Shown here piece by piece: positions 36,095-49,739 of a DNA stretch of 64,000 bases. Under the pieces are notes generated by a model. That model had not been told where the DNA came from and made no database searches. It worked only from the letters and a program-made list of their open reading frames with translations. Where the stretch lies: contig CAZVTT010000001.1 in assembly GCA_964629685.1 (NCBI GenBank), positions 319,796 through 383,795 on the forward strand. The letters are read 5' to 3'. The position numbers and the translations under genes are program-made. How positions within the stretch are numbered: position 1 is the stretch's first letter; each line of letters starts with the position of its first letter. The stretch comes from an uncultured Gammaproteobacteria bacterium (GTDB lineage: Bacteria > Patescibacteriota > Microgenomatia > UBA10105 > UBA927).

Positions 36095-37951
36095 CTAAAT
36101 TAAAAGGTCATCTTCCCTAAATCCCCGATCATAATCCAGTGAAACTTGTGATCTTAATATTTCTTCCGGAATATCTCCAAGAAAACGCGAGGGCATGTTT
36201 TGTGTTCGCGTGCCAAAGAATAGTCGATGGTTGGCATGGGTAAGGTAGAGAGTATCTTTCGCTCTGGTAATTGCCACATAACAAAGTCGACGTTCTTCTT
36301 CAAGTTCTTCTTTATCCAGAAGCGCTCTGCTGTGAGGGAAGAGACCTTCTTCCATTCCGATTACAAATACGGTTGGATACTCTAATCCTTTAGCAGTATG
36401 AATTGTCATAAGCGTAACTGCAGAACGGTTTGTGTCGCGCTGTTTAACTTTGTCCGGTTCGTACTCCCGTTCTACTAATGCCACATTCTCCAGAAATGTT
36501 GTTAGTTCAGGAAATTCCATCGCAACAGACCGGAGTTCCTTAATATTTTCGAGTCTGTATGCTTCTTCTTCCTTATTTATGTCGTAGAGAGAGAGGTATT
36601 CTGTTTGTTCTATTACTTTATCCAACAACTCTAAAGTAGTTTCAGAAATAAGTGTATTATCTTGTTGCAATTGCTGTTGAAGCTTCTGAAATCGTTCTAA
36701 ACGGCCTTTACCAAGTTTTTCTATCCGTTTGTATGATACCGAATCTTTTGGGTTTGAAAGAACACGTAAATATGCCAGTACGTCTTTAATTTCTTTCCGT
36801 TCGTAGAACCTTGTTCCTCCTACCAATAAATACGGAATTCCGGCGTGGAGTAAAGCTTCTTCTACTACACGCGATTGTGCATTAGTACGGTATAAAATGG
36901 CAAAGTCTGTATAGGGTCTCCCTGATTGGAGAATAGTTTGTATCAGAAACATTGCTTCGTCATGTTCATTTCTGGCTTCATAAAGCACGATATTTTGTCC
37001 TTTGGGTTTTTCTGTCCATAGTTTCAGAATTGGATGTGACGTATTTTTTGATATTACGGCATAAGCGGCATCTAGTATCGTTTGCGTAGAGCGGTAGTTC
37101 TGTTCAAGATGAAATTCCTTAACATTGGGATAGTCTACCCTGAAATTAGTAATATTCCGGTAATCGGCACCTCTCCAGCGATATATACTTTGTGAAGCAT
37201 CACCTACAACGCAAATATTGAGGTAGCGACCGCTTAGTTGTCGTGTAAGTACATACTGGGCTTTATTAGTATCCTGGTATTCATCTACCAGTATGTATTT
37301 GTATTGTTCCTGATATTTCCCCTGAATTTCGGGAAATTTCTCAAAAAGTTGAACGGTCTTCATTAATAAATCATCAAAATCAAGAGCTTCATTCTGTTGA
37401 AGCAGTTTCTGATATTCCAAGTACACTTGGGCAACCGTTTCCTGATAGTATCCACGTGCCAGTTGTGGATATTCCAGTGCCGTAATTAGTTCGTTTTTTA
37501 TTTCCGATATGGTATGAAGTAACGCGTTAGGATTAAAATTTTTGGCTGAGATATCCAACTTGCGCAGAACTTCTTTAATTGCGTCTGACTGATCCTGGTC
37601 ATCATATATTACGAATGACGGGGCAATTCCTAAATGCATGCCTTCCCGCCGTAACACTTTTACTGCAAAGGAATGAAATGTTCCCGCGTAAGGAAGTTCA
37701 GTAGATAGTCCATTCTGACTAAGTAGTGTGAGAATTCTCTTTTTCATTTCTGCCGCGGCTTTATTGGTAAATGTACACATGAGAATGTTATGTGGCGGAA
37801 CTGCATGATCAGCAATAAGATGGGCAACTTTATATGTTAAAACTTTTGTTTTACCGCTGCCTGCCCCAGCAAAAATAAGTGTTGGCCCTTTAACGTGGGT
37901 TGCGGCTTTACGCTGCTCTTGGTTTAATTCATTGAGGAATGCTGAAAGCAT
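36095..37951 (-). CDS. pcrA: ATP-dependent DNA helicase PcrA/UvrD
   Basis: FAGAGSGKT, DEYQDTN, GDASQSIYRWRGA, and a C-terminal conserved block. The ORF track extends to 38107, but the family-typical N-terminus begins at MLSAFLNELNQEQRKAA (start ~37951), so the longer call would overlap tpiA. Confidence 0.85.
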   Translation of the reverse strand: MLSAFLNELNQEQRKAATHVKGPTLIFAGAGSGKTKVLTYKVAHLIADHAVPPHNILMCTFTNKAAAEMKKRILTLLSQNGLSTELPYAGTFHSFAVKVLRREGMHLGIAPSFVIYDDQDQSDAIKEVLRKLDISAKNFNPNALLHTISEIKNELITALEYPQLARGYYQETVAQVYLEYQKLLQQNEALDFDDLLMKTVQLFEKFPEIQGKYQEQYKYILVDEYQDTNKAQYVLTRQLSGRYLNICVVGDASQSIYRWRGADYRNITNFRVDYPNVKEFHLEQNYRSTQTILDAAYAVISKNTSHPILKLWTEKPKGQNIVLYEARNEHDEAMFLIQTILQSGRPYTDFAILYRTNAQSRVVEEALLHAGIPYLLVGGTRFYERKEIKDVLAYLRVLSNPKDSVSYKRIEKLGKGRLERFQKLQQQLQQDNTLISETTLELLDKVIEQTEYLSLYDINKEEEAYRLENIKELRSVAMEFPELTTFLENVALVEREYEPDKVKQRDTNRSAVTLMTIHTAKGLEYPTVFVIGMEEGLFPHSRALLDKEELEEERRLCYVAITRAKDTLYLTHANHRLFFGTRTQNMPSRFLGDIPEEILRSQVSLDYDRGFREDDLLI

Positions 37952-37968
37952 AGGTATAATCTTATCAT

Positions 37969-38661
37969 ATGAAAACTTTATATCTAATCGGTAATTGGAA
38001 AAGTAACAAAACAATTTCGGAGACAAAGGACTGGCTTTCTCAATTATCGGGATATAAAGACAAACTGGAACAGTTTGCCGATTTGCGGATAGTTCTTTGT
38101 GCTCCATATACAGCGCTTTCTACTCTTAAGGACGAGATTGAACGATTAGGTCTGCCAATTTCTGCAGGGGCTCAGGATTTGTCTCCTTTTGTTGAAGGCG
38201 CATATACGGGAGCGGTAACGGCAAGAATGGTCAGGGAAGTAGCAGATTACGTCATAGTCGGGCATTCTGAGCGGAGAAAGTATTTTGGTGAAACGGATGA
38301 AATGTTACAGAAAAAAGTTGATCAGGCAAAATTACAGGGCCTAAAAGTGGTATATTGCGTTCCCGATGCAACGTCTGCTATTGCAAAAGGCAGCGATATC
38401 GTTGGCTATGAGCCTGTTTGGGCTATTGGAACAGGACAATCAGAAACACCGGAAAATGCCAACGCCGTGATTGCCAAAATTAAGGCTACCACCGGAGTGC
38501 CGGTAATTGTATACGGAGGCAGTGTGAATGCTGAAAATGTAGCTTCTTTTCTCGGTCAGCCCGAGATTGATGGAGTTTTGTTAGGGGGAGCGAGTTTGGA
38601 CCCTGACAAGTTCTTTCAACTCCTTACCGCTGCCGTCTCAGTGCCACAACCAAAACAATAA
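37969..38661 (+). CDS. tpiA: triosephosphate isomerase
   Basis: LIGNWKSN, VGHSERR, and EPVWAIGTG catalytic motifs. Confidence 0.85.
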   Translation: MKTLYLIGNWKSNKTISETKDWLSQLSGYKDKLEQFADLRIVLCAPYTALSTLKDEIERLGLPISAGAQDLSPFVEGAYTGAVTARMVREVADYVIVGHSERRKYFGETDEMLQKKVDQAKLQGLKVVYCVPDATSAIAKGSDIVGYEPVWAIGTGQSETPENANAVIAKIKATTGVPVIVYGGSVNAENVASFLGQPEIDGVLLGGASLDPDKFFQLLTAAVSVPQPKQ

Positions 38662-38771: not shown

Positions 38772-39824
38772 TTAGAAGGCTAATCCCAGCAGTAGAAGTA
38801 GTATTCCTCCGGCGATTACCGCTATCCCCAGTATGCTTGGACCAGTTCCTGCTACCGGTACTTCCGGTGTCGGCACGGCCGTTTCTCCCGGAGGCAGCGG
38901 TGTTGGGGTAGGTGTCGCTACGTCACAGCTACAATTAGTTTTGTTTGTGCAGGAGGGGTTGCGGCATTTTCCGCTGGAACAAATGAGTCCGTCTTCACAG
39001 TCACCATTATCTGAACATGAATTGTTACAGGATAACGGACAGGAACAGTCTGCTTCGTTTGTGCAGGAAGGATTTCTACATACTCCGCCTGAGCAAACCA
39101 ATCCTGATTTACAATCACTTGTGGCATTACATCCGTTATTACAACTTGCAGGTGTCGGTGTCTGAGTCGGTGTATTTGTTGCGACATCACAGGTACAATT
39201 GGATTTATTCGTACAGGAAGGATTGCGGCAGAGTCCGCCGGAGCAGATAAGCCCATCAGTACAATCTCCGTTGTCTGAACATGCATTGTTACATGCAACC
39301 GGACAGGTACAATCCGACTCGCTGGTGCAGGAAGGATTGCGGCACATTCCGCCTGAACACACTAAACCAGCCTTACAATCACTGTTGCTGGCACAGGCAC
39401 TGTCACAGCTCAATGGTGGTGTGGTTGGAGACGGTGTATTTGTCGGTGTGTTTGATGGTGTGTTTGTAGGGGTTACACACGTACAATCTTCACGATTCGT
39501 ACAGGAAGGGTTGCGGCATAGCCCACCGGAACAAACTAAACCTGCTGCACAATCGGCATTTCTTCCGCAGGATGCATTACAGGCACCTGGTGGGGAAGTG
39601 GGCGTTGGTGTTGGGGATACGTTTAAGGCAAACGTGATTTTGCATGCTTCAGGTTGCTGCACTCTGAATGTAAGTGTACAAGCAGGTGTAGCCGCCTTTG
39701 GTTCGTCCGGAGTAATTGGTTTTGTTTGTTGTAGTCTTAAGCTTGTAATTAGCGTTACGACACCCAGTCCAAGTGTTCCAATAGTAAGTAATGTTATATA
39801 CCAGTATTTTCGGATCATCTTCAT
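38772..39824 (-). CDS. cell-surface protein built from six cysteine-rich modules (C-N-x-(S/A)-C-x5-DC-x2-GL-x-CSGG-x-CRNPSCT-x5-C-(T/S)-C) separated by T/P-rich linkers; N- and C-terminal hydrophobic anchors
   Basis: The pattern is read directly from the translation. N-terminal signal/TM; C-terminal …PEVPVAGTG + hydrophobic helix. Confidence 0.6.
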   Translation of the reverse strand: MKMIRKYWYITLLTIGTLGLGVVTLITSLRLQQTKPITPDEPKAATPACTLTFRVQQPEACKITFALNVSPTPTPTSPPGACNASCGRNADCAAGLVCSGGLCRNPSCTNREDCTCVTPTNTPSNTPTNTPSPTTPPLSCDSACASNSDCKAGLVCSGGMCRNPSCTSESDCTCPVACNNACSDNGDCTDGLICSGGLCRNPSCTNKSNCTCDVATNTPTQTPTPASCNNGCNATSDCKSGLVCSGGVCRNPSCTNEADCSCPLSCNNSCSDNGDCEDGLICSSGKCRNPSCTNKTNCSCDVATPTPTPLPPGETAVPTPEVPVAGTGPSILGIAVIAGGILLLLLGLAF

Positions 39825-39826
39825 AG

Positions 39827-41065
39827 TTATCTCCAGACGCCTCCGATAAAGAGTTCGGCCTCAATGGTAAAGGTCGTCGTGCCACTTGAAGGAATTGTAA
39901 AGTTGAGAATGTATTCTCCGGCATCATTTTTAGCTGACGTTTCGGTGAATGTTCCGCCGTTGACTCTGATTCTGGCTTTGGTTGCGTTCGTTCCGACGAC
40001 TGCAATCACGATGCTGTCTCCCGGTTGCAGGTTGTTCGGATTGACGACTTCACCGTTTCTGTAAATCTTGATGTTCTGACATTGTCCCGTAATATCCGTT
40101 GGTGTCGGTGTATAGGTAACGGTAACTGTCGCTGTGGGCGTGTTCGTTGGCGTGATGGTACATTTGTCGTCGCTGCAGACTACACCATTCTGTAGACAGG
40201 CTGTCAGGACACATTTGTTGGCGCTGCAGGTGTGATTCTGTGGACATTGTGCATTACCGGTACAGGCATTTCCACATTGCGGGTTCGGTGTTGGCGTTGG
40301 TGTCGGTGTCTTGGTTGGAGTAGCCGTCGGTGTTTTGGTCGGTGTGTGTGTTGGTGTATTGGTGTTGCCTGTCGGTGTGGTTGGTGTTGGGGTATTTCCG
40401 CCACCGCCACCACAACTTGAGCTGATAACTTCAAAACTTCCACAACCTAAATTATCCCGTGAGCCTCCACGGCAGACTTCATCAACTTGTCCGCATCCTT
40501 GGGTGTATGCTTTTGCAGCTGCCCAGTTCGGGAAATCATAGGAAAGATTCTCGTGACATTCTCCGCCTGAAAGATTCCCACAACGGTAGGCGTTAATTTT
40601 GCCACAGGTACCTCCGGGACAAAGATCGCCGCCGACCTGATTACAGACGCGATTTCCACTTGTTCCGGTACAGACAAGATTCTGTCCACCGCAACATGGT
40701 TTGTTTTCATCACAAGCCTGTAACTTTGCCGCGCATTGACCATTAGTAGGGGTAGGCGTACTGTACGGACCACTAGCTGCTCGATTCCTAGTGTCTTGAA
40801 CTGATTGTGCACCGAAGTAAATTACCGGAAGTGAAAGCAGCATTAACAACATTACTGCCATCAATATCATCTTTTTCTTGTTATTCTTGCCGGCTGCAGG
40901 TGGAGGAGATGCTGGGGGAACACTGGAACCGGCACTTGCTCCCGGTGTCCATGATCCTGTCTGACCCATTAATGCATCTAAATTCGGTTCAGCTTCCGGT
41001 GTCGGTGGAGGAGTTGTTGCACTTGTTGTATCCGTCGGCTGATTAGCTAGTATGTCTGCTGTCAT
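39827..41065 (-). CDS. N-in membrane-anchored surface protein with two Cys-rich modules, (TP)n linkers and a C-terminal beta-rich domain; copy 1 of a tandem pair
   Basis: 412 aa. A Pro-rich cytoplasmic N-terminus with KNNKKK before a single TM. The extracellular part has CCGG, CPGGTC and CGGGGG motifs, a (TPT/KTP)n linker, and QCGNACTGNAQC…KCVLTAC…CSDDKC. Identical to the next gene except for the first ~8 codons. Confidence 0.6.
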   Translation of the reverse strand: MTADILANQPTDTTSATTPPPTPEAEPNLDALMGQTGSWTPGASAGSSVPPASPPPAAGKNNKKKMILMAVMLLMLLSLPVIYFGAQSVQDTRNRAASGPYSTPTPTNGQCAAKLQACDENKPCCGGQNLVCTGTSGNRVCNQVGGDLCPGGTCGKINAYRCGNLSGGECHENLSYDFPNWAAAKAYTQGCGQVDEVCRGGSRDNLGCGSFEVISSSCGGGGGNTPTPTTPTGNTNTPTHTPTKTPTATPTKTPTPTPTPNPQCGNACTGNAQCPQNHTCSANKCVLTACLQNGVVCSDDKCTITPTNTPTATVTVTYTPTPTDITGQCQNIKIYRNGEVVNPNNLQPGDSIVIAVVGTNATKARIRVNGGTFTETSAKNDAGEYILNFTIPSSGTTTFTIEAELFIGGVWR

Positions 41066-41067
41066 AG

Positions 41068-42303
41068 TTATCTCCAGACGCCTCCGATAAAGAGTTCGGC
41101 CTCAATGGTAAAGGTCGTCGTGCCACTTGAAGGAATTGTAAAGTTGAGAATGTATTCTCCGGCATCATTTTTAGCTGACGTTTCGGTGAATGTTCCGCCG
41201 TTGACTCTGATTCTGGCTTTGGTTGCGTTCGTTCCGACGACTGCAATCACGATGCTGTCTCCCGGTTGCAGGTTGTTCGGATTGACGACTTCACCGTTTC
41301 TGTAAATCTTGATGTTCTGACATTGTCCCGTAATATCCGTTGGTGTCGGTGTATAGGTAACGGTAACTGTCGCTGTGGGCGTGTTCGTTGGCGTGATGGT
41401 ACATTTGTCGTCGCTGCAGACTACACCATTCTGTAGACAGGCTGTCAGGACACATTTGTTGGCGCTGCAGGTGTGATTCTGTGGACATTGTGCATTACCG
41501 GTACAGGCATTTCCACATTGCGGGTTCGGTGTTGGCGTTGGTGTCGGTGTCTTGGTTGGAGTAGCCGTCGGTGTTTTGGTCGGTGTGTGTGTTGGTGTAT
41601 TGGTGTTGCCTGTCGGTGTGGTTGGTGTTGGGGTATTTCCGCCACCGCCACCACAACTTGAGCTGATAACTTCAAAACTTCCACAACCTAAATTATCCCG
41701 TGAGCCTCCACGGCAGACTTCATCAACTTGTCCGCATCCTTGGGTGTATGCTTTTGCAGCTGCCCAGTTCGGGAAATCATAGGAAAGATTCTCGTGACAT
41801 TCTCCGCCTGAAAGATTCCCACAACGGTAGGCGTTAATTTTGCCACAGGTACCTCCGGGACAAAGATCGCCGCCGACCTGATTACAGACGCGATTTCCAC
41901 TTGTTCCGGTACAGACAAGATTCTGTCCACCGCAACATGGTTTGTTTTCATCACAAGCCTGTAACTTTGCCGCGCATTGACCATTAGTAGGGGTAGGCGT
42001 ACTGTACGGACCACTAGCTGCTCGATTCCTAGTGTCTTGAACTGATTGTGCACCGAAGTAAATTACCGGAAGTGAAAGCAGCATTAACAACATTACTGCC
42101 ATCAATATCATCTTTTTCTTGTTATTCTTGCCGGCTGCAGGTGGAGGAGATGCTGGGGGAACACTGGAACCGGCACTTGCTCCCGGTGTCCATGATCCTG
42201 TCTGACCCATTAATGCATCTAAATTCGGTTCAGCTTCCGGTGTCGGTGGAGGAGTTGTTGCACTTGTTGTATCCGTCGGCTGATTTAAAGATTGATTGTC
42301 CAT
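41068..42303 (-). CDS. copy 2 of the tandem Cys-rich/TP-linker surface protein
   Basis: 411 aa, identical to copy 1 from residue ~8 onward. The N-terminus is MDNQSLNQ versus MTADILANQ in copy 1. Confidence 0.6.
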   Translation of the reverse strand: MDNQSLNQPTDTTSATTPPPTPEAEPNLDALMGQTGSWTPGASAGSSVPPASPPPAAGKNNKKKMILMAVMLLMLLSLPVIYFGAQSVQDTRNRAASGPYSTPTPTNGQCAAKLQACDENKPCCGGQNLVCTGTSGNRVCNQVGGDLCPGGTCGKINAYRCGNLSGGECHENLSYDFPNWAAAKAYTQGCGQVDEVCRGGSRDNLGCGSFEVISSSCGGGGGNTPTPTTPTGNTNTPTHTPTKTPTATPTKTPTPTPTPNPQCGNACTGNAQCPQNHTCSANKCVLTACLQNGVVCSDDKCTITPTNTPTATVTVTYTPTPTDITGQCQNIKIYRNGEVVNPNNLQPGDSIVIAVVGTNATKARIRVNGGTFTETSAKNDAGEYILNFTIPSSGTTTFTIEAELFIGGVWR

Positions 42304-42376
42304 GTAATAATTTCTAAAACCAAATTGGCCTATTTCTACATTAGATGATTAATAAATTCCTCGTCAAGTATATCTT

Positions 42377-43714
42377 TTAAAATAAGACTAAAACTCCCGA
42401 TGCAAGTAATACGATTCCGAAAACTAACAGTAGCAATGTCGGTAATGAGGTAGCTGTAGTTGGAATAGGTTGAGGCGTCGCTGATGCGACTGGAGTAGAT
42501 GTCGGTGTAAGAGTGGCTGTGGCAGTAGCGGTGGGCGTAAGGGTAGCAGACGGCGTAGCTTCGCCTAATACTTGTGTACCGCTTTTAAAAATTGTGAATC
42601 CATGAGTGATGGCTACTGGTTTACCTTGAGCATCTACTGTGGTTACGGTGACACTCTGTTTGCCGGATCCCAGTTCTTTCGTCGGAGTATATCTCCATAC
42701 GCCATCGGTTCCTACTTTCGTTGTTCCGCTAAAAGGATTAGTGATACCAAGCGTTATGGTGACTACTTTTGACGGAATGCCTGTACCCTGAATAAGTGGA
42801 AGTCGGCTGGTAAGGGTAGCTCCTTCGGCAGGAGCGTTTAATGATATTTTTTCTGTAGCGAACGTTGATTGAGTCGTTCCGAGTACCGCGGTTTCTTCTT
42901 TTGGAGTAGCGCTAGGTATAGGCGTTACTGTCGGGCTTAGTTGTAAAGCCAGCTGGGCAGTTGCATTGACTTTCGCTTGTTGTTTTCGGAAATCGTATGT
43001 TTTACCGATAATCATTGTCGGTACTGGAGAATCATTAAAGGTGTCGCTCACAGCCGTGGCCTCTTCTTCAGCATATTTTACAACCAATGTTTCGGTTAAG
43101 CGATCCTGTGTGGTTATATACGTATTCAAATCTGTGGTTCGAATTAAGTTGAGTGGGATTATCCATGAACCTGTAGGTTTTACCAGTGCGGAAAGTGTCT
43201 GGCTTCCTTCTAAAGTTAGAAAGATTAGTGCTCCGTCGGCAGGTTGATTGTCAGTTGTAAGTACGGTACCGTAGGCAGGTTCAAGTGATCCTGCGTTCGA
43301 ATCCAGTGTCGGGGCTGTACTTACATGATATGGTTTACCCCCTGCATCATAATATTCTTGCCCGTTTGCAAGTATTTTTAATGTATAGTCGGTTTCCGCT
43401 TTGAGATTTCTTAAAGTAACGCTGTGACTTTGATATTTCCCTAGTTTTCCGTTTCCGTCGCGTTCATCTATAAACGTCTGCGGTCGCTGCTGAGGACCCG
43501 TTAATACCACTGCTCCGGAGGTAGAGCCGCCAGTCAGCCACGTTATTGTTACCGTTGTGTCTGTGATATTTGTAAATTGAATATTAGCAGGTCGTTCGGA
43601 GGGGGATGCTTTTGTAGGACTTCGGAATGCCTGATCAAGTACAACAACAACTCCTACAATCGTAAGGAGCAGTAGTAATCCAATAACAGTAGGAATTTTT
43701 CGCGGAAATTGCAT
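42377..43714 (-). CDS. membrane-anchored surface protein with a fibronectin type III-like domain
   Basis: N-terminal TM; FN3-like PANIQFTNITDTTVTITW…; a long Thr/Ser-rich beta region; C-terminal (T/A/P)-rich linker + hydrophobic helix. Confidence 0.55.
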   Translation of the reverse strand: MQFPRKIPTVIGLLLLLTIVGVVVVLDQAFRSPTKASPSERPANIQFTNITDTTVTITWLTGGSTSGAVVLTGPQQRPQTFIDERDGNGKLGKYQSHSVTLRNLKAETDYTLKILANGQEYYDAGGKPYHVSTAPTLDSNAGSLEPAYGTVLTTDNQPADGALIFLTLEGSQTLSALVKPTGSWIIPLNLIRTTDLNTYITTQDRLTETLVVKYAEEEATAVSDTFNDSPVPTMIIGKTYDFRKQQAKVNATAQLALQLSPTVTPIPSATPKEETAVLGTTQSTFATEKISLNAPAEGATLTSRLPLIQGTGIPSKVVTITLGITNPFSGTTKVGTDGVWRYTPTKELGSGKQSVTVTTVDAQGKPVAITHGFTIFKSGTQVLGEATPSATLTPTATATATLTPTSTPVASATPQPIPTTATSLPTLLLLVFGIVLLASGVLVLF

Positions 43715-43719
43715 GAATT

Positions 43720-43914
43720 CTAATATACCTGTTTCTTTTGTAACACACTTAGTATGCCAGTGTCTAAAGTAGGGTTCAATGGGGTAATTACCTGCTTAAC
43801 TGTACTGGAAACAGTCGTAGTTTTAGCGGTCTTAACCAGTTCGAAAAATATCCAAGATAATACGGTTAAAAATGTAAATACCGAAACGAGCAATATGTCA
43901 CGGTCATTATCCAT
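43720..43914 (-). CDS. small single-TM protein (possible minor pilus-assembly component)
   Basis: 64 aa with one TM, packed between the pilO-like and FN3 genes. Confidence 0.3.
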   Translation of the reverse strand: MDNDRDILLVSVFTFLTVLSWIFFELVKTAKTTTVSSTVKQVITPLNPTLDTGILSVLQKKQVY

Positions 43915-43926
43915 GTCACTCCTATT

Positions 43927-44628
43927 CTATTGTGTTTTTCCTTTTAGTGAATAGTACCCTTGAAGTCGGATTACAAGTCTTAGTGATTTTGGTGCTAATG
44001 GGTCATCAGATACCTCTTCGTCTTTGAGTGAACTGATTATCGAAGAATTAACGGTAACAATTCGTCTCATGTTAATAACCCCTTCAAGAAATGCTTTGAT
44101 GTTTGAGTATGGCCCGTTGACCGAAACAACCATAGGAACTATTTTTTCTTTCGGCTGGTTTTGGGTTTTTTGACTGCTGGGCGTAGCTTCCTGTCCCAAT
44201 AACGGGATACTGGGAATTGAAATTGAGCTCACTGTAACTTGTGTCTGTTCTGCTAAATTTTTTAATTGGAATACCAGTGTTAATGCATCCGGTGTTTCCG
44301 GTACTGCCTGATCAATAAGCGGTAACTGATCTTCAATAGCCTGATAGTTTGCTTGAGCCTCAATCAGGTTTGTTATTTTTTCTTCCATTATTTTATTTAC
44401 GACCGTATTATCGGCAATTTCCCGTCTGAGGAATAAAATTGTTTGTAGTGTCGGGCGTATTCCGTACCAACCAAAAAGTGAAATTGCAAGAAATGAGAAA
44501 ATTGTGGTGGTATACGCACGATTTTTAGGTTTGCTTATCAATGGTTCAATAGTCTGATAGTACCGTTTATATTGTTGATAATTTGGTTTTTGATTGACTG
44601 CCATATTATTTTTTCTTTGGTGTCGCAA
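43927..44628 (-). CDS. pilO: type IV pilus assembly protein PilO-like
   Basis: N-terminal TM, coiled-coil and C-terminal alpha/beta region. Overlaps the upstream pilN-like gene by 23 nt. Confidence 0.5.
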   Translation of the reverse strand: MRHQRKNNMAVNQKPNYQQYKRYYQTIEPLISKPKNRAYTTTIFSFLAISLFGWYGIRPTLQTILFLRREIADNTVVNKIMEEKITNLIEAQANYQAIEDQLPLIDQAVPETPDALTLVFQLKNLAEQTQVTVSSISIPSIPLLGQEATPSSQKTQNQPKEKIVPMVVSVNGPYSNIKAFLEGVINMRRIVTVNSSIISSLKDEEVSDDPLAPKSLRLVIRLQGYYSLKGKTQ

Positions 44629-45157
44629 TAAATGCGGTAATTTTAAATTGTATCCCCACTAAAGGTTGTTTTTTTATATCTCCAACTTCGATTTGAGTAA
44701 TTTGTTTTGTACTTTGAAGGTTTGCAATAAATTGTGAGAAACCTGTGGTGCTCCCAGCCGTTGCGCTTATAAGAATTCTCTCGGGACCATAGTCAAGTGA
44801 TTCTAAGTAAACATCGGGTGGCAGTAGCGTCTGGAAAAGAGAAACCATTTCGACTGGTTTCGATTGGTTGTTTAATAATGTGTTTACATTTACAAGTCGT
44901 TCCTGAAGTTGTTTAAATGAAGCCTCAAAGTCTTGATTAGCTTTTAGGATTGCCTGCTTTTGGCCAATTTCCTCTTTAAGGTCGGTTAATTTACGGTCGA
45001 GACTAAATCGGGAGATAAAGGCGAGTAATACAATTATCTCAGTGCCGATCATGATATATCGGCCATACGTTACCGCCCACGTAGTAATTCTGCCAATGGG
45101 CGAGTTCTCCAGATCATCACGTTGTAATAAATTAATTGTCGGAGTCTTGGCAGGCAT
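44606..45157 (-). CDS. pilN: type IV pilus assembly protein PilN-like
   Basis: Conserved N-terminal INLL motif (…TPTINLLQRDD…) followed by a TM helix, a coiled-coil and a C-terminal ferredoxin-like domain. Confidence 0.6.
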   Translation of the reverse strand: MPAKTPTINLLQRDDLENSPIGRITTWAVTYGRYIMIGTEIIVLLAFISRFSLDRKLTDLKEEIGQKQAILKANQDFEASFKQLQERLVNVNTLLNNQSKPVEMVSLFQTLLPPDVYLESLDYGPERILISATAGSTTGFSQFIANLQSTKQITQIEVGDIKKQPLVGIQFKITAFIATPKKK

Positions 45158-45199: not shown

Positions 45200-45436
45200 T
45201 TATTTCTTAAGCAGTTTAGCTAACCTCGATTTTAGACGATCAGCTTTGTTCTGGTGGATTACATTGCGTTTTGCAGCCTTATCGAGAGTCTTGAACGCTG
45301 AAGTCAGTGTTTTTTCTGATGGCTTTTTACGCATTGATTTAACAATTTCACGTACTGACTCTTTCGTAACACGATTTGTCTCCGTGCGTTTTCGGTCGTG
45401 GCGAAGTTTTTTTATGGCACTAGCAATAATTGGCAT
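45200..45436 (-). CDS. rpsT: 30S ribosomal protein S20
   Basis: 78 aa, highly basic, S20 signature (…AIKKLRHDRKR…NRVTKES…). Confidence 0.9.
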   Translation of the reverse strand: MPIIASAIKKLRHDRKRTETNRVTKESVREIVKSMRKKPSEKTLTSAFKTLDKAAKRNVIHQNKADRLKSRLAKLLKK

Positions 45437-47243: not shown

Positions 47244-48707
47244 CTATTGGTTTGTTGTTTGCTCCGTCGGTTGGGTATCAACTGCTTCCTGAGGCTGTTC
47301 CGGTAAAGGGGCGGTCAATGTTAATTCCAGTACTGCGATGCTTTGAGCTGGCATGAATACTTCACGGGTAAATGTATCTCCCGAAATGGTTTCAGTGAAC
47401 TTAGCATCTCTCCCCAGCATAAATTTTTCACGATAGGTGTAAATTCCGGGCTCAAGGTTATTTATCGTCACAGGAACGTTTTCTGAGTGAGTTCCGGCTC
47501 TGTCGAAATTAACCAACATGATTCTAAGGGTATTGTTTCTGGTACTGGCAAAGCCGGTTACCCAGCTCCCTTCACCGTCAAGCTGAAGCCTTGTTCCCGT
47601 CATGGCATCTAAGAATGAGTAAACATAGTATCGTGGTTTTGGCTTTTTACCTTTAGATTCGTGACCCAATAGTCCCCACCCATCTTCCTGGCCCGGTCCG
47701 TCCTTAATTTGGAAGCTAAGTAAATACGTTGGTCCTCCCGAAATCAATTGTCTGACAGTGGCAGCGGTATGGGCTGCGGCGTACATCGTTCCGTAACGCT
47801 TATCCTTCGCGCCGGTGAAGCCAAATTCCGAAATTATCTTCGGAATAAGTGTGTAGCGTGGATAGGTGATGAGCCAGGATGCCAAGTTTTGTTGGTCAAT
47901 GTTAAATTGCGCAGGATCCTGCAGGTAAGAATGCCAAGAAAGGAAATCCAGTCGGTTCCCGCTTGTAACTAATGCTAATACCCAGTTTTTGTAGAGACCG
48001 GTAGTTGATGGACCTCCCAGTAAGAATGGGTTTACACCCTTTGCACGAGACGCTCCTAACGCGGCGTATTTATATAATGTTAAATAGTTTTTTTCGCCAG
48101 AAAGCTTCCATTTCCCGAATTGTTCAAGGTCTGGCTCGTTCCATACTTCATAGTAAATACCGTTTAAATTTTTCCCCGTTCGTCCACTGTAGTGTTCTAT
48201 CGTTCGCTGTACTACGAGTGACCATTCGTCCCAATTATTGGGTGGGTTTATGATTGAGCCGTCTTTGGCGATCACGGAAGGCATGTACGATAGTGCTAAT
48301 ATAGGTTTAGCTCCGGTAGCTAAAATGGAATTTACTGCCTGATCAAGTTGAGTAAAATCAAATGTTAAGTCATTACCGGAACGGCCTACAACATTATAAT
48401 GGTCATAGAGGTGGTCCAGTCTGATAAGTAGTGGTTTAAGGGCTTTGGTTTCACCTATTACCGGTGAGATCATATCTGCTGACTCTTCTCCTCCTTGTGC
48501 GAAAGCGTGGTAGAAGTCAGTTTTAATCGGTTCCAATACTGCTTTTGCGTCAACAATAATATTTGCCTTTGTTCCTGCCGCTCTGGCGGCAATATCAAAT
48601 GCGTTATAAACTCCCAGTAAAAAGAGTGGCAAGAATGTGAAAATAGCGACCAGGGAGACAACGGAAGTAAATCGTGAAGATGAGTCTCGTTCAAGAAAAT
48701 TGGTCAT
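47244..48707 (-). CDS. membrane-anchored clan GH-A glycoside hydrolase (GH39/GH5-like)
   Basis: N-terminal TM; YYEVWNEPD (acid/base Glu in the NEP motif), later ISEFG (candidate nucleophile Glu); TIM-barrel-like pattern. Confidence 0.55.
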   Translation of the reverse strand: MTNFLERDSSSRFTSVVSLVAIFTFLPLFLLGVYNAFDIAARAAGTKANIIVDAKAVLEPIKTDFYHAFAQGGEESADMISPVIGETKALKPLLIRLDHLYDHYNVVGRSGNDLTFDFTQLDQAVNSILATGAKPILALSYMPSVIAKDGSIINPPNNWDEWSLVVQRTIEHYSGRTGKNLNGIYYEVWNEPDLEQFGKWKLSGEKNYLTLYKYAALGASRAKGVNPFLLGGPSTTGLYKNWVLALVTSGNRLDFLSWHSYLQDPAQFNIDQQNLASWLITYPRYTLIPKIISEFGFTGAKDKRYGTMYAAAHTAATVRQLISGGPTYLLSFQIKDGPGQEDGWGLLGHESKGKKPKPRYYVYSFLDAMTGTRLQLDGEGSWVTGFASTRNNTLRIMLVNFDRAGTHSENVPVTINNLEPGIYTYREKFMLGRDAKFTETISGDTFTREVFMPAQSIAVLELTLTAPLPEQPQEAVDTQPTEQTTNQ

Positions 48708-48710
48708 ACA

Positions 48711-49739
48711 TCAGTGCAGTACGATCGGGATACTTATTCCGGCAATCAACAGTATACTGGCAAGTGCAATCAAGAGATAGGTATTGTCCATAATGCCGGT
48801 AACAGGTACAGCACTGGAGGTTGATGTGGATGTGCTGCTTTGAATAATAAATGTGGTACTTGTTGTTTGGCTGGCTCCTGTCGTTGTATCTGTTGCCGTT
48901 ACTACTAACTGATGTGATCCGGTTGTTAGGGCAGTCTGCGGTGTGAAACTCCAGTTTCCGCTGCTGTCTGTCGTAGTCGTTCCCGTTTGCGGAGCAGAGT
49001 AAATTGTTACGGTAATTGTGGCACTCGGTGTGGCTTTTCCCTGAAACGTAGGACGGGTAGTAGTTAAGATACTATCTTTGGTAGGATAGGTTATAAGTAA
49101 TGCCGAACCGGAAGCCGTACCTGTTGGCGTGGGGGTTGGCGTAAGCGTAATTGTTCCGGAAGGATTGGGAGTAGTGGTGGGGGTAGGTGTTCCGGTTCCA
49201 CCTGCTCCTGTGCCTTCGGTGATAGTAACGGTAGCGCCATTTTGACCGCTTAGGGCGTTCGTTGTACCTTCACCAGGACTTCCTACAAACGTGTTCGATG
49301 CGAATCTAATTGAAATCGGTGTATCGGTTTTCTGTAATGCTTTGAACTTAACGGTGGCTACAGTACCTGTTCCTTTAACCGGTTGGGCAGCGCTTGCAGC
49401 ACCTACCGTGATGGATGCGACGCCTTTATCAACAACTCCGGATGCCAGGATGTTGGGGAAAAGCGTCCCATTGGTAATTGTTTCCGCTTCCAGTTTTGTT
49501 TGATCAAACGTGAGATGGATTTCTGCCGCTATGACTTGGTTGTCGCCAGTATCAATTGTGACATCAAATGAAAATTCATCGCCTATTTTTTTAGTGATTT
49601 TTGAAGGAGTAATGGAGAGCACTGTTGCCGGTGCAGCACGTTTCCGCAGTTCGGTATTTCGTTGAACCAGCAATACCGTAGCAGGTATAGCTATTACGAC
49701 TAAAAGAATACTTATGAGCAGGAATAATTTCTTCATCAC
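48711..49739 (-). CDS. surface protein with cohesin-like domain, T/P-rich linker and C-terminal VPVTG + hydrophobic anchor
   Basis: N-terminal TM; cohesin-like beta-sandwich (…FSFDVTIDTGDNQVIAAEIHLTFDQTKLEAETI…GTVATVKFKALQ…); (TPTP)n linker; C-terminal SSAVPVTG-hydrophobic helix. Confidence 0.5.
   Translation of the reverse strand: MMKKLFLLISILLVVIAIPATVLLVQRNTELRKRAAPATVLSITPSKITKKIGDEFSFDVTIDTGDNQVIAAEIHLTFDQTKLEAETITNGTLFPNILASGVVDKGVASITVGAASAAQPVKGTGTVATVKFKALQKTDTPISIRFASNTFVGSPGEGTTNALSGQNGATVTITEGTGAGGTGTPTPTTTPNPSGTITLTPTPTPTGTASGSALLITYPTKDSILTTTRPTFQGKATPSATITVTIYSAPQTGTTTTDSSGNWSFTPQTALTTGSHQLVVTATDTTTGASQTTSTTFIIQSSTSTSTSSAVPVTGIMDNTYLLIALASILLIAGISIPIVLH

What the first reader, a model, noticed from the sequence alone, without database searches (positions are those of the whole stretch)
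39821..42303. Two 1241-bp tandem gene copies identical apart from ~6-8 N-terminal codons
The two units are base-for-base identical over ~1224 bp, as far as can be read here. The only differences are the 18-19 nt encoding the extreme N-terminus of each protein (MTADILANQ versus MDNQSLNQ). A simple collapse or expansion artefact would not create two distinct in-frame start regions. This looks like a very recent duplication or ongoing gene conversion, with only the cytoplasmic tip diverging. It could be a copy-number-variable or phase-variable surface-protein locus.
Basis: seen in the sequence. Interest (0 to 1): 0.6.

Follow-up and report, generated by a model that had tools for sequence, protein, structure and literature searches.

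The report
Old tandem gene pair homogenised by recombination
Two neighbouring genes for an uncharacterised surface protein of a Patescibacteria (CPR) bacterium are an old gene pair whose bodies have been made identical by recombination between the copies, leaving only the first 6-7 codons different; this is a clear example of a known process, not a new mechanism.

Summary
Window 39821-41044 equals 41062-42285 base for base (1224 bp, period 1241). This gives two minus-strand genes, B (411 aa) and A (412 aa), that differ only in their first 6-7 codons.

It is not a fresh duplication. Both N-terminal tips are old. A's tip (MTADILANQ) is the usual N-terminus of this protein family, and it matches, at DNA level, the tip of the second gene of a diverged tandem pair in a syntenic relative (L006, paralogues 49% identical). 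B's tip and its upstream motif match the first gene of that pair. Other relatives show a 126-nt patch at 90% identity (L027), a 507-bp identical 3' block (L008), or a single copy (L011).

The best explanation is concerted evolution by gene conversion and/or unequal crossing-over. The tips escape because they lie at or outside the 5' edge of the repeat unit.

Independent k=31 assemblies from five sequencing runs break exactly at the repeat edges and contain the junction, so the head-to-tail arrangement is real. The exact copy number and the strict 100% identity cannot be verified without reads.

I found no sign of phase variation. Copy-number variation between samples is hinted at but not shown. 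Protein function is unknown; it is membrane-anchored and Cys-rich with a C-terminal beta-sandwich.

The parts
41068..42303 (-). Gene B (411 aa), upstream copy. Tip is MDNQSL; the sequence is identical to A from NQPTD... to the end.
   Evidence: ORF; it equals P0001, on an NCBI contig of 953,690 bp.
39827..41065 (-). Gene A (412 aa), downstream copy. Tip is MTADILA; the sequence is identical to B from NQPTD... to the end.
   Evidence: the exact gene is on Logan contigs L001 and L002.
41062..42285 (-). Repeat copy 1 (R, 1224 bp): codon 7 of B to its stop, then CT + ATGA (the start of A).
39821..41044 (-). Repeat copy 2 (R, 1224 bp): codon 8 of A to its stop, then CT + ATGA (the start of D).
41045..41061 (-). 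Junction J, 17 nt unique to A (minus strand CAGCAGACATACTAGCT, giving T-A-D-I-L-A after ATG-A). It is a relic of the old second paralogue's N-terminus.
   Evidence: Orthology to the L006 G2 tip ATGGCAGATATACTCGAT. Family N-terminus M-x-(A/D)-D-I-L.
42286..42303 (-). B-specific tip, 18 nt (ATGGACAATCAATCTTTA, MDNQSL). It is conserved in sister species: L011 MDNQPL, L012 MDNNPS.
42304..42376 (-). Intergenic region upstream of B. It carries a conserved ACTTGAC...TCTAATGTAGAAATAGG...GAAATTATTAC motif (possible promoter or 5' UTR) and has no Shine-Dalgarno sequence.
   Evidence: conserved in window, L011/L024, L012/L025, L026, L006. The consensus promoter scan did not call it, so promoter function is inferred only.
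41072..41075 (-). GGAG Shine-Dalgarno for gene A, inside the last codons of B (TGG AGA TAA CT ATG). The same element at 39831-39834 serves gene D.
   Evidence: Read from the sequence; alignment.
38772..39824 (-). Gene D (350 aa). It has five Cys-rich modules and a C-terminal hydrophobic anchor. Its ATG-A is the last 4 nt of repeat copy 2.
   Evidence: An orthologue follows the single gene in L011.
42377..43714 (-). Upstream gene (445 aa): fn3 / Big_13 surface protein. It is the conserved left neighbour of the pair.
43720..45157 (-). PilN-like (44606-45157), PilO-like (43927-44628) and a 64-aa membrane protein (43720-43914). These are the first genes of the same-strand cluster.
   Evidence: The same order occurs in L003, L006, L008, L024-L027.

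Best explanation
B and A are an ancient tandem pair of paralogous genes. They encode a Patescibacteria-specific, single-pass (N-in) membrane protein with two Cys-rich extracellular domains, Thr/Pro linkers and a C-terminal beta-sandwich. They sit in a conserved pilN-pilO-fn3-G-G-D cell-surface gene cluster. In this genome, homologous recombination between the two copies (gene conversion and/or cycles of unequal crossing-over) has recently made everything identical, from codon 7/8 through the stop codon to the ATG-A of the next gene. The first 6-7 codons escape because of where they lie. B's tip and its upstream region are outside the repeat unit. A's tip is the 17-nt junction between units, too short and too diverged to be swept along. 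Any exchange between the R bodies therefore preserves the layout nB-R-(J-R)n-D. As a result, two almost identical proteins are made from two different translation-start contexts. B has its own conserved upstream region without a Shine-Dalgarno sequence. A has a GGAG embedded in the end of B. The locus can in principle collapse to one copy or expand.

Shown here: exact identity, antiquity of both tips, conserved synteny, graded homogenisation in relatives, and the junction present in independent assemblies.

Inferred, not shown: the recombination mechanism and its direction, the expression consequences, and the protein's role at the cell surface.
For: (1) The repeat is an exact 1224 bp with sharp edges.

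(2) A's tip is the family-typical N-terminus: P0005 MADILD, P0006 MPDDILD, P0010 MADDILN, P0018 MADLLD. Its DNA matches the tip of the second paralogue in L006: GCAGAYATACTNGNT...AATCAG. The blastn alignment of L006 11087-11580 to window 41553..41043 runs across the B-end/A-tip junction.

(3) B's tip and upstream motif are conserved in L011, L012, L026 and L006-G1.

(4) Relatives keep two genes in the same order but diverged. L006 G1/G2 are 49% identical. L027 G1 (MADPAPD) and G2 (MADDIL) are 36-62% identical, with a 126-nt island at 90%. L008 has G1-D1-G2-D2 with 507 bp 100% identical over the C-terminal domain plus the start of D, and unrelated N-terminal halves. This is a graded series of homogenisation.

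(5) The window paralogues are 100% identical, while the nearest orthologue (L011) is about 78% identical in nucleotides. Paralogues more similar than orthologues is the signature of concerted evolution.

(6) R is a mosaic relative to its orthologues. Its flanks are 86-95% identical in amino acids to L011/P0002. Its central domain is only 47-53% identical to them, although L011, P0002 and L006-G1 share that domain at 75-85%. That implies past segmental exchange.

(7) The arrangement is not an artefact of one assembler. Logan k=31 contigs L001 and L002 are exactly the last 30 nt of R + J + R. L003, L004 and L005 end exactly 30 nt into R.
Against: No reads were available, so copy number (2 or more) and strict identity cannot be checked. 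A short-read assembler that walks a loop twice would output identical copies even if they differed at a few sites. The direction and number of conversion events are unresolved. The donor of R's divergent central domain is unknown: it is no closer to L006-G2 (46%) than to the type-1 domain. The 3' edge of the repeat shows no decayed margin; I attribute this to constraint on the C-terminus, SD and start codon, which is an assumption. Evidence for the same repeat in sister species is indirect, resting on contig end-points only.
Confidence: 0.78

Rival explanations
1. A brand-new tandem duplication of a single ancestral gene, with the 17-nt junction created de novo as filler or microhomology. No older second paralogue is involved.
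For: There are zero differences over 1224 bp. A close relative (L011) has only one copy between the fn3 gene and D. ATGA occurs at both unit ends and could serve as microhomology.
Against: The junction encodes the family's canonical N-terminus (ADIL) and matches the L006 second-paralogue tip at DNA level. A simple duplication of any segment of U-nB-R-D cannot produce these 17 nt, because they match neither B's tip nor D's continuation. Two-gene loci with the same pair of tip types exist in L006 and L027.
Confidence: 0.06
2. An assembly artefact. Either the second copy does not exist, or two appreciably different paralogues or strain alleles were collapsed into one consensus and written out twice.
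For: A 1.2-kb exact repeat exceeds short-read length. In all Logan short-read assemblies the repeat is collapsed and contigs break at its edges. L001 carries one SNP relative to the window, so some variation exists in the population.
Against: The junction R-end + J + R-start is assembled independently in two other runs (L001, L002). Three further runs break exactly where a second incoming path must join (L003-L005). So a head-to-tail R-J-R arrangement exists in the reads. Many differences between the copies would have broken the single 1271-nt unitig-like contigs. A few hidden differences cannot be excluded.
Confidence: 0.08
3. A selected variation device: a copy-number-variable, recombination-driven locus that changes dosage or swaps domains of a host-contact surface protein. 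The two tips would be kept distinct by selection, for different translation starts or cytoplasmic partners.
For: In two sister species, contigs identical at the strain level either run into the gene or stop 30 nt after the tip, depending on the sample (L011 vs L024, L012 vs L025). L011 shows a single-copy allele. The B tip and its non-SD upstream region are conserved across species. The central domain is swapped relative to orthologues. The proteins are surface-exposed and Cys-rich, in an episymbiont-type lineage.
Against: All the copy-number evidence is indirect and could come from coverage and graph-cleaning effects. Retention of the tips follows automatically from repeat geometry, without selection. 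No dedicated recombinase, inverted repeats or simple-sequence tracts occur nearby. No silent cassettes were found in the 64-kb window.
Confidence: 0.12

Closest known systems
Concerted evolution of duplicated bacterial protein genes by RecA-dependent gene conversion, e.g. tufA/tufB of Salmonella (own knowledge; PMC5485169, 'The processive kinetics of gene conversion in bacteria', listed) and rRNA operons (PMC8022953)
   Same: The paralogues are far more alike than the orthologues. Identity is sharp-edged and ends where homology ends. Relatives show mosaic or partial tracts.
   Different: Here the copies are adjacent direct repeats, so unequal crossing-over with copy gain or loss is equally possible. 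The genes encode a fast-evolving surface protein rather than a conserved housekeeping factor. The repeat carries the start signals of the next gene. Nothing has been tested experimentally.
Tandem or multi-copy surface-protein gene families of pathogens that are homogenised or diversified by recombination (e.g. Neisseria opa/pilE-pilS, Anaplasma msp2; own knowledge)
   Same: These are surface-exposed proteins where segmental exchange between paralogues gives mosaic genes. The window's central domain differs from that of its orthologues.
   Different: There are no silent partial cassettes, no evidence of programmed switching, and both copies are complete and presumably expressed. The outcome here is identity, not diversity.
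Tandem gene amplification / segmental duplication arrays in bacteria (own knowledge)
   Same: Head-to-tail units share one constant junction. They are expected to be unstable through recombination between 1.2-kb perfect repeats. A possible single-copy allele exists in a relative.
   Different: The junction is not a novel join. It is the conserved N-terminus of an old paralogue, so the array is ancient rather than a transient amplification.
CBM56 / Ig / FN3-like beta-sandwich modules (structural resemblance of the C-terminal domain only)

Membership tests
Concerted evolution (gene conversion / unequal crossing-over) of tandem paralogues | Paralogues within a genome are more similar to each other than to orthologues in related genomes | tested here: met
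   A and B are 100% identical over 1224 bp, against about 78% nucleotide identity to the L011 orthologue and 66-70% to L006.
Concerted evolution (gene conversion / unequal crossing-over) of tandem paralogues | The duplication predates the divergence of the compared lineages | tested here: met
   The same gene order and the same two tip types occur in L006 and L027. The A tip aligns at DNA level to the L006 G2 tip. The B upstream motif is conserved.
Concerted evolution (gene conversion / unequal crossing-over) of tandem paralogues | Discrete tracts or mosaic similarity along the genes, differing between lineages | tested here: met
   L027 has a 126-nt island at 90% identity. L008 has a 507-bp block at 100%. 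The window has 1224 bp at 100%. L006 has none. R is a mosaic relative to its orthologues.
Concerted evolution (gene conversion / unequal crossing-over) of tandem paralogues | Direct demonstration of non-reciprocal transfer (genetic experiment or polymorphism data) | not testable with these tools
   No reads, isolates or population haplotypes were available.
Phase-variable surface-protein locus (slipped-strand or invertible-promoter type) | A simple-sequence tract in the promoter or 5' coding region, or inverted repeats flanking a promoter together with a site-specific recombinase | tested here: not met
   There are no homopolymer or short tandem tracts in the tips or in 42304-42376. There are no inverted repeats of 80 nt or more in the window. 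The only ones near the locus are 34 nt at 71%.
Diversity-generating retroelement target (TR/VR pair) | A short template repeat and a variable repeat differing mainly at adenines | tested here: not met
   The repeat is a whole gene with zero mismatches. I did not search for a reverse transcriptase.
Copy-number-variable tandem array | Different numbers of units in different cells, strains or samples | tested here: inconclusive
   L011 (single-copy path) and L024 (contig stops 30 nt into R') share 100% identical flanks, and L012 and L025 behave likewise. Coverage effects cannot be excluded.
Type IV pilus components (pilins, PilMNOPQ) | Pfam PilN/PilO domains, or a class III signal peptide in pilins | tested here: not met
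   Only the neighbouring genes hit PilN (PF05137) and PilO (PF04350). A, B and D have no hit in Pfam or NCBIfam, and their N-termini show no G/FTLxE pilin signal (read).
CBM56-like / Ig-like beta-sandwich domain (C-terminal 85 aa) | Significant fold match plus conserved ligand-binding residues | tested here: inconclusive

The most novel reading that the evidence does not exclude
Across several Gottesmanbacteria-like species, the first gene of this locus is followed by one or more copies that are kept identical from codon 7 onward, and the copy number differs between natural populations (from 1 to 2 or more). On this reading the locus is a conserved, recombination-driven dosage and domain-swapping device for a host-contact surface protein of CPR bacteria. 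The two N-terminal tips, and the SD versus non-SD start contexts, would be maintained by selection as two expression forms.
Probability: 0.15. Interest if true: 0.6.

Novelty: new member of a known kind. Interest (0 to 1): 0.35.

Why it matters
This is a well-documented natural case of near-complete concerted evolution in a tiny CPR genome. The relatives provide intermediate stages: no homogenisation, a patch, a third of the gene, the whole gene, and collapse to one copy. It shows that homologous recombination actively reshapes surface-protein genes in these uncultivated, probably episymbiotic bacteria.

It also carries a practical warning. Short-read assemblies break or collapse at this locus. 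Public gene calls miss the neighbouring gene D. The protein family has no annotation. Surface-protein repertoires and copy numbers of CPR MAGs are therefore likely to be underestimated.

It does not reveal a new molecular mechanism.

Tried and rejected
- Pfam, NCBIfam and PDB-sequence searches of A/B and D found no family.
- Rfam and tRNA scans of the window found nothing.
- The consensus promoter scan did not call the conserved upstream motif of B.
- The genome contigs and metagenome-contig scans with the family alignment found only distant relatives. The first attempt failed for lack of a conserved stretch.
- Exact look-ups of protein B and of D found nothing. B can never be complete on a short-read contig, and D seems to be miscalled on the opposite strand in public data.
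- I tried to find contigs starting at the R' end in the L011 species through a D' homologue search. It failed because D' is not in the collection.
- Searching papers for the SRA run prefix, and for gene conversion in CPR, returned nothing.
- The afdb50 fold library was unavailable.
- I considered a 1241-bp circular element, because L001 and L002 are 1271 bp (1241 + 30). I rejected it because the contigs break exactly at the R-end branch point rather than at an arbitrary position, and the window plus L003-L005 show chromosomal flanks.
- I rejected DGR, pilin and phase-variation readings (see the membership tests).
Full report
**1. The observation**

Reading the region and comparing it with itself at offset 1241 shows that window 39821-41044 and 41062-42285 are identical at all 1224 positions. 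No other offset gives a run of even 10 nt. It is the only long repeat in the 64-kb window, apart from a 70%-identical internal repeat of the next gene, and tblastn finds no further paralogue in the window.

The coding strand is the minus strand:
- Gene B is 42303..41068 (411 aa, MDNQSLNQPTD...).
- Gene A is 41065..39827 (412 aa, MTADILANQPTD...).
- Gene D is 39824..38772 (350 aa).

On the coding strand the repeat R begins at AAT CAG (N-Q, codon 7 of B and codon 8 of A). It ends ...TGG AGA TAA CT ATG A. So R contains the stop codon, a GGAG Shine-Dalgarno sequence and the ATG-A of whichever gene follows. The non-shared DNA is 18 nt in B (its ATG plus five codons) and a 17-nt junction J in A (CAGCAGACATACTAGCT).

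**2. Is it an assembly artefact?**

Exact-protein look-ups returned independent Logan (k=31) assemblies of five sequencing runs from one study.
- L001 and L002 (SRR14271339, SRR14271365) are 1271-nt contigs. Each is exactly the last 30 nt of R, then J, then all of R. That is the path R-end to J to R-start, broken at the branch at the end of R.
- L003 (a 245-kb contig), L004 and L005 (SRR14271333, -372, -370) come in from the upstream fn3 gene and all stop exactly 30 nt (k-1) after the first base of R. That is the signature of a second path joining there.

So a head-to-tail R-J-R arrangement embedded in chromosomal flanks exists in the reads. The duplication is not an invention of one assembler.

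Two things cannot be checked without reads. One is whether there are exactly two units. The other is whether the copies are strictly identical: a loop walked twice yields identical copies by construction, and L001 shows one synonymous SNP at window 40682. Both A and B are on an NCBI contig of 953,690 bp, presumably the source genome.

**3. What the genes are**

A/B have no Pfam, NCBIfam or PDB-sequence match. Their homologues are few, and those that carry a name are from Patescibacteria.

The family alignment and an AlphaFold2 model (mean pLDDT 63.5, with domains at about 75-90) show this layout:
- a proline-rich N-terminal tail of about 60 aa;
- a lysine cluster and one TM helix (N-in, so the tail is cytoplasmic);
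- a conserved AD-x-RNRAA motif;
- a Cys-rich domain of about 110 aa;
- a Thr/Pro linker, then a Cys-rich module of about 45 aa, then a second linker;
- a C-terminal beta-sandwich of about 85 aa.

The genes lie in a same-strand cluster: pilN-like, pilO-like, a 64-aa gene, a 445-aa fn3/Big_13 protein, B, A, D. That cluster is conserved in many Gottesmanbacteria/Microgenomates-type genomes. A cell-surface role, possibly adhesive or glycan-binding, is an inference only.

**4. The pair is old**

Three lines of evidence support this.

First, the tip of A is the family's canonical N-terminus: P0005 MADILD, P0006 MPDDILD, P0010 MADDILN, P0018 MADLLD.

Second, the syntenic relative L006 has two tandem genes after the fn3 gene, and they are only 49% identical to each other. 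The second starts ATG GCA GAT ATA CTC GAT ... AAT CAG, against ATG ACA GCA GAC ATA CTA GCT AAT CAG for A. The blastn alignment between L006 and the window runs straight across the B-end/A-tip junction.

Third, B's tip and a conserved upstream element (ACTTGAC ... TCTAATGTAGAAATAGG ... GAAATTATTAC-ATG) recur upstream of the first gene in L011, L012, L026 and L006.

L027 (GCA_042569225.1) again has G1 (MADPAPD...) followed by G2 (MADDIL...) and then D.

The 17-nt junction therefore cannot be filler from a new duplication. It is the surviving N-terminus of an old second paralogue.

**5. Graded homogenisation in relatives**

| Locus | State of the paralogues |
|---|---|
| L006 | Diverged throughout; only the last about 48 nt are 75% alike |
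| L027 | 126-nt island of 90% nucleotide identity (TM/juxtamembrane) in an otherwise 36-62% pair |
| L008 | Unit is G-D duplicated; 507 bp 100% identical, covering the C-terminal domain, the stop and the first about 210 nt of D; N-terminal halves of G1 and G2 unrelated |
| Window | Whole gene minus the tip is identical |
| L011 (about 78% nucleotide identity to the window) | A single gene with the B-type tip runs directly into D |

The L011 state is what a crossover between two homogenised copies would leave.

The window's R is itself a mosaic. Residues 8-104 and 327-412 are 86-95% identical to L011/P0002. The central Cys-rich domain is only 47-53% identical to them, although L011, P0002 and L006-G1 share that domain at 75-85%. 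Its donor is unresolved.

**6. Mechanism**

The pattern is concerted evolution: paralogues identical, orthologues 78% or less, the duplication older than the speciation events, and lineage-specific tracts. The cause would be homologous recombination between the two direct repeats, through gene conversion and/or unequal sister-chromatid exchange. Both are established processes in bacteria (tuf genes and rRNA operons; PMC5485169 and PMC8022953, plus my own knowledge).

Repeat geometry alone explains why only the tips differ. B's tip lies outside the unit, and A's tip is the inter-unit junction. Every exchange within R preserves nB-R-(J-R)n-D, so no selection on the tips is needed.

The 3' edge stays identical up to ATG-A. 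I suggest this is because the C-terminal residues, the SD and the start codon are constrained; this is an inference.

The two proteins differ only in 6-7 cytoplasmic residues, but they have different translation-start contexts. B has a conserved leader without an SD. A has a GGAG inside the end of B.

**7. Hints beyond the window**

Contigs from three other species stop at the equivalent point:
- L024, 100% identical to L011 over 531 nt, ends exactly 30 nt after AATCAG.
- L025, 100% identical to L012 over 380 nt, ends 28-30 nt after (CC)AATCAA.
- L026 ends 46 nt after its ATG.
- L012 ends right after TAA T ATG A.

This fits the same repeat structure in sister species. With L011 it also fits differences in copy number between samples. 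However, it could equally reflect coverage and graph cleaning, so I treat it as a lead, not a finding.

**8. Comparison and verdict**

The closest known phenomena are gene-conversion-driven concerted evolution of bacterial paralogues and unstable tandem amplifications. Phase variation, DGR targeting and a pilin identity were tested and not met.

The finding is real and well explained. It is a new example of a known kind, in an unannotated CPR surface-protein family. Interest is moderate to low (0.35). It would rise if read-level data showed conserved, population-variable arrays across species.

Noticed in passing
window 38772-39824 (minus); L011 1849-2901: Gene D encodes five Cys-rich modules (C..C....DC..GL.CSGG.CRNPSC) built on a 264-nt tandem unit (38902-39165 / 39166-39429, 70% identical). 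It has a conserved C-terminal 'VPVAG.GPS.LG + hydrophobic' tail, also seen in L008 D1 and D2. Neither D nor its L011 orthologue is in the 15-billion-protein collection, and the public gene call in L011 is on the opposite strand, so this family is probably systematically miscalled.
   Followed up: partly
window 42304-42376 (minus); L011 405-483; L012 254-334; L026 11347-11430; L006 9760-9820: A conserved upstream element, ACTTGAC(G)...TCTAATGTAGAAATAGG...GAAATTATT(T)AC-ATG, precedes the first paralogue in five species. No Shine-Dalgarno sequence is present. It is a possible promoter and leader, but the consensus scan did not call it.
   Followed up: partly
L008 5966-6472 and 7381-7887 (CAZUOM010000006.1): A two-gene unit (G + D) is duplicated, with 507 bp 100% identical spanning the C-terminal domain of G, the stop and the start of D. 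The N-terminal halves of G1 and G2 are unrelated. The record is titled 'uncultured Gammaproteobacteria', but the synteny is that of Patescibacteria.
   Followed up: partly
L027 4810-4935 and 6283-6408 (GCA_042569225.1, JBHPHQ010000002.1): A 126-nt island of 90% nucleotide identity (TM and juxtamembrane segment) lies between two otherwise diverged tandem paralogues. It is probably an old conversion patch.
   Followed up: partly
window 40406-40744 and 41647-41985 (residues about 108-220 of A and B): The central Cys-rich domain of R is of a different type from that of its closest orthologues: 47-53% identity, against the 75-85% they share with each other. The flanks are 86-95% identical. The donor is unknown.
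   Followed up: partly
window 43927-45157 (minus) and 45200-45436 (minus): The PilN-like and PilO-like genes head the cluster with no pilM, pilin or secretin gene next to them, directly downstream of rpsT. The 445-aa fn3/Big_13 neighbour has more than 430 homologues, mostly from Gottesmanbacteria/Microgenomates.
   Followed up: no
window 40682 (L001 position about 410): There is one synonymous difference (CAG to CAA) between the window and the collapsed repeat contig of SRR14271339. L002 is identical to the window.
   Followed up: no
window 47244-49739 (minus): A cohesin + Big_13 domain protein (342 aa) lies next to a GH39-like glycoside hydrolase (487 aa). The pair is conserved next to the cluster in L003, L006, L024 and L026.
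   Followed up: no
window 36095-38107 (minus) and 37969-38661 (plus): The listed UvrD-like helicase ORF and the triose-phosphate isomerase ORF overlap by about 140 nt head to head. The helicase start is probably further downstream than the first ATG of the ORF.
   Followed up: no
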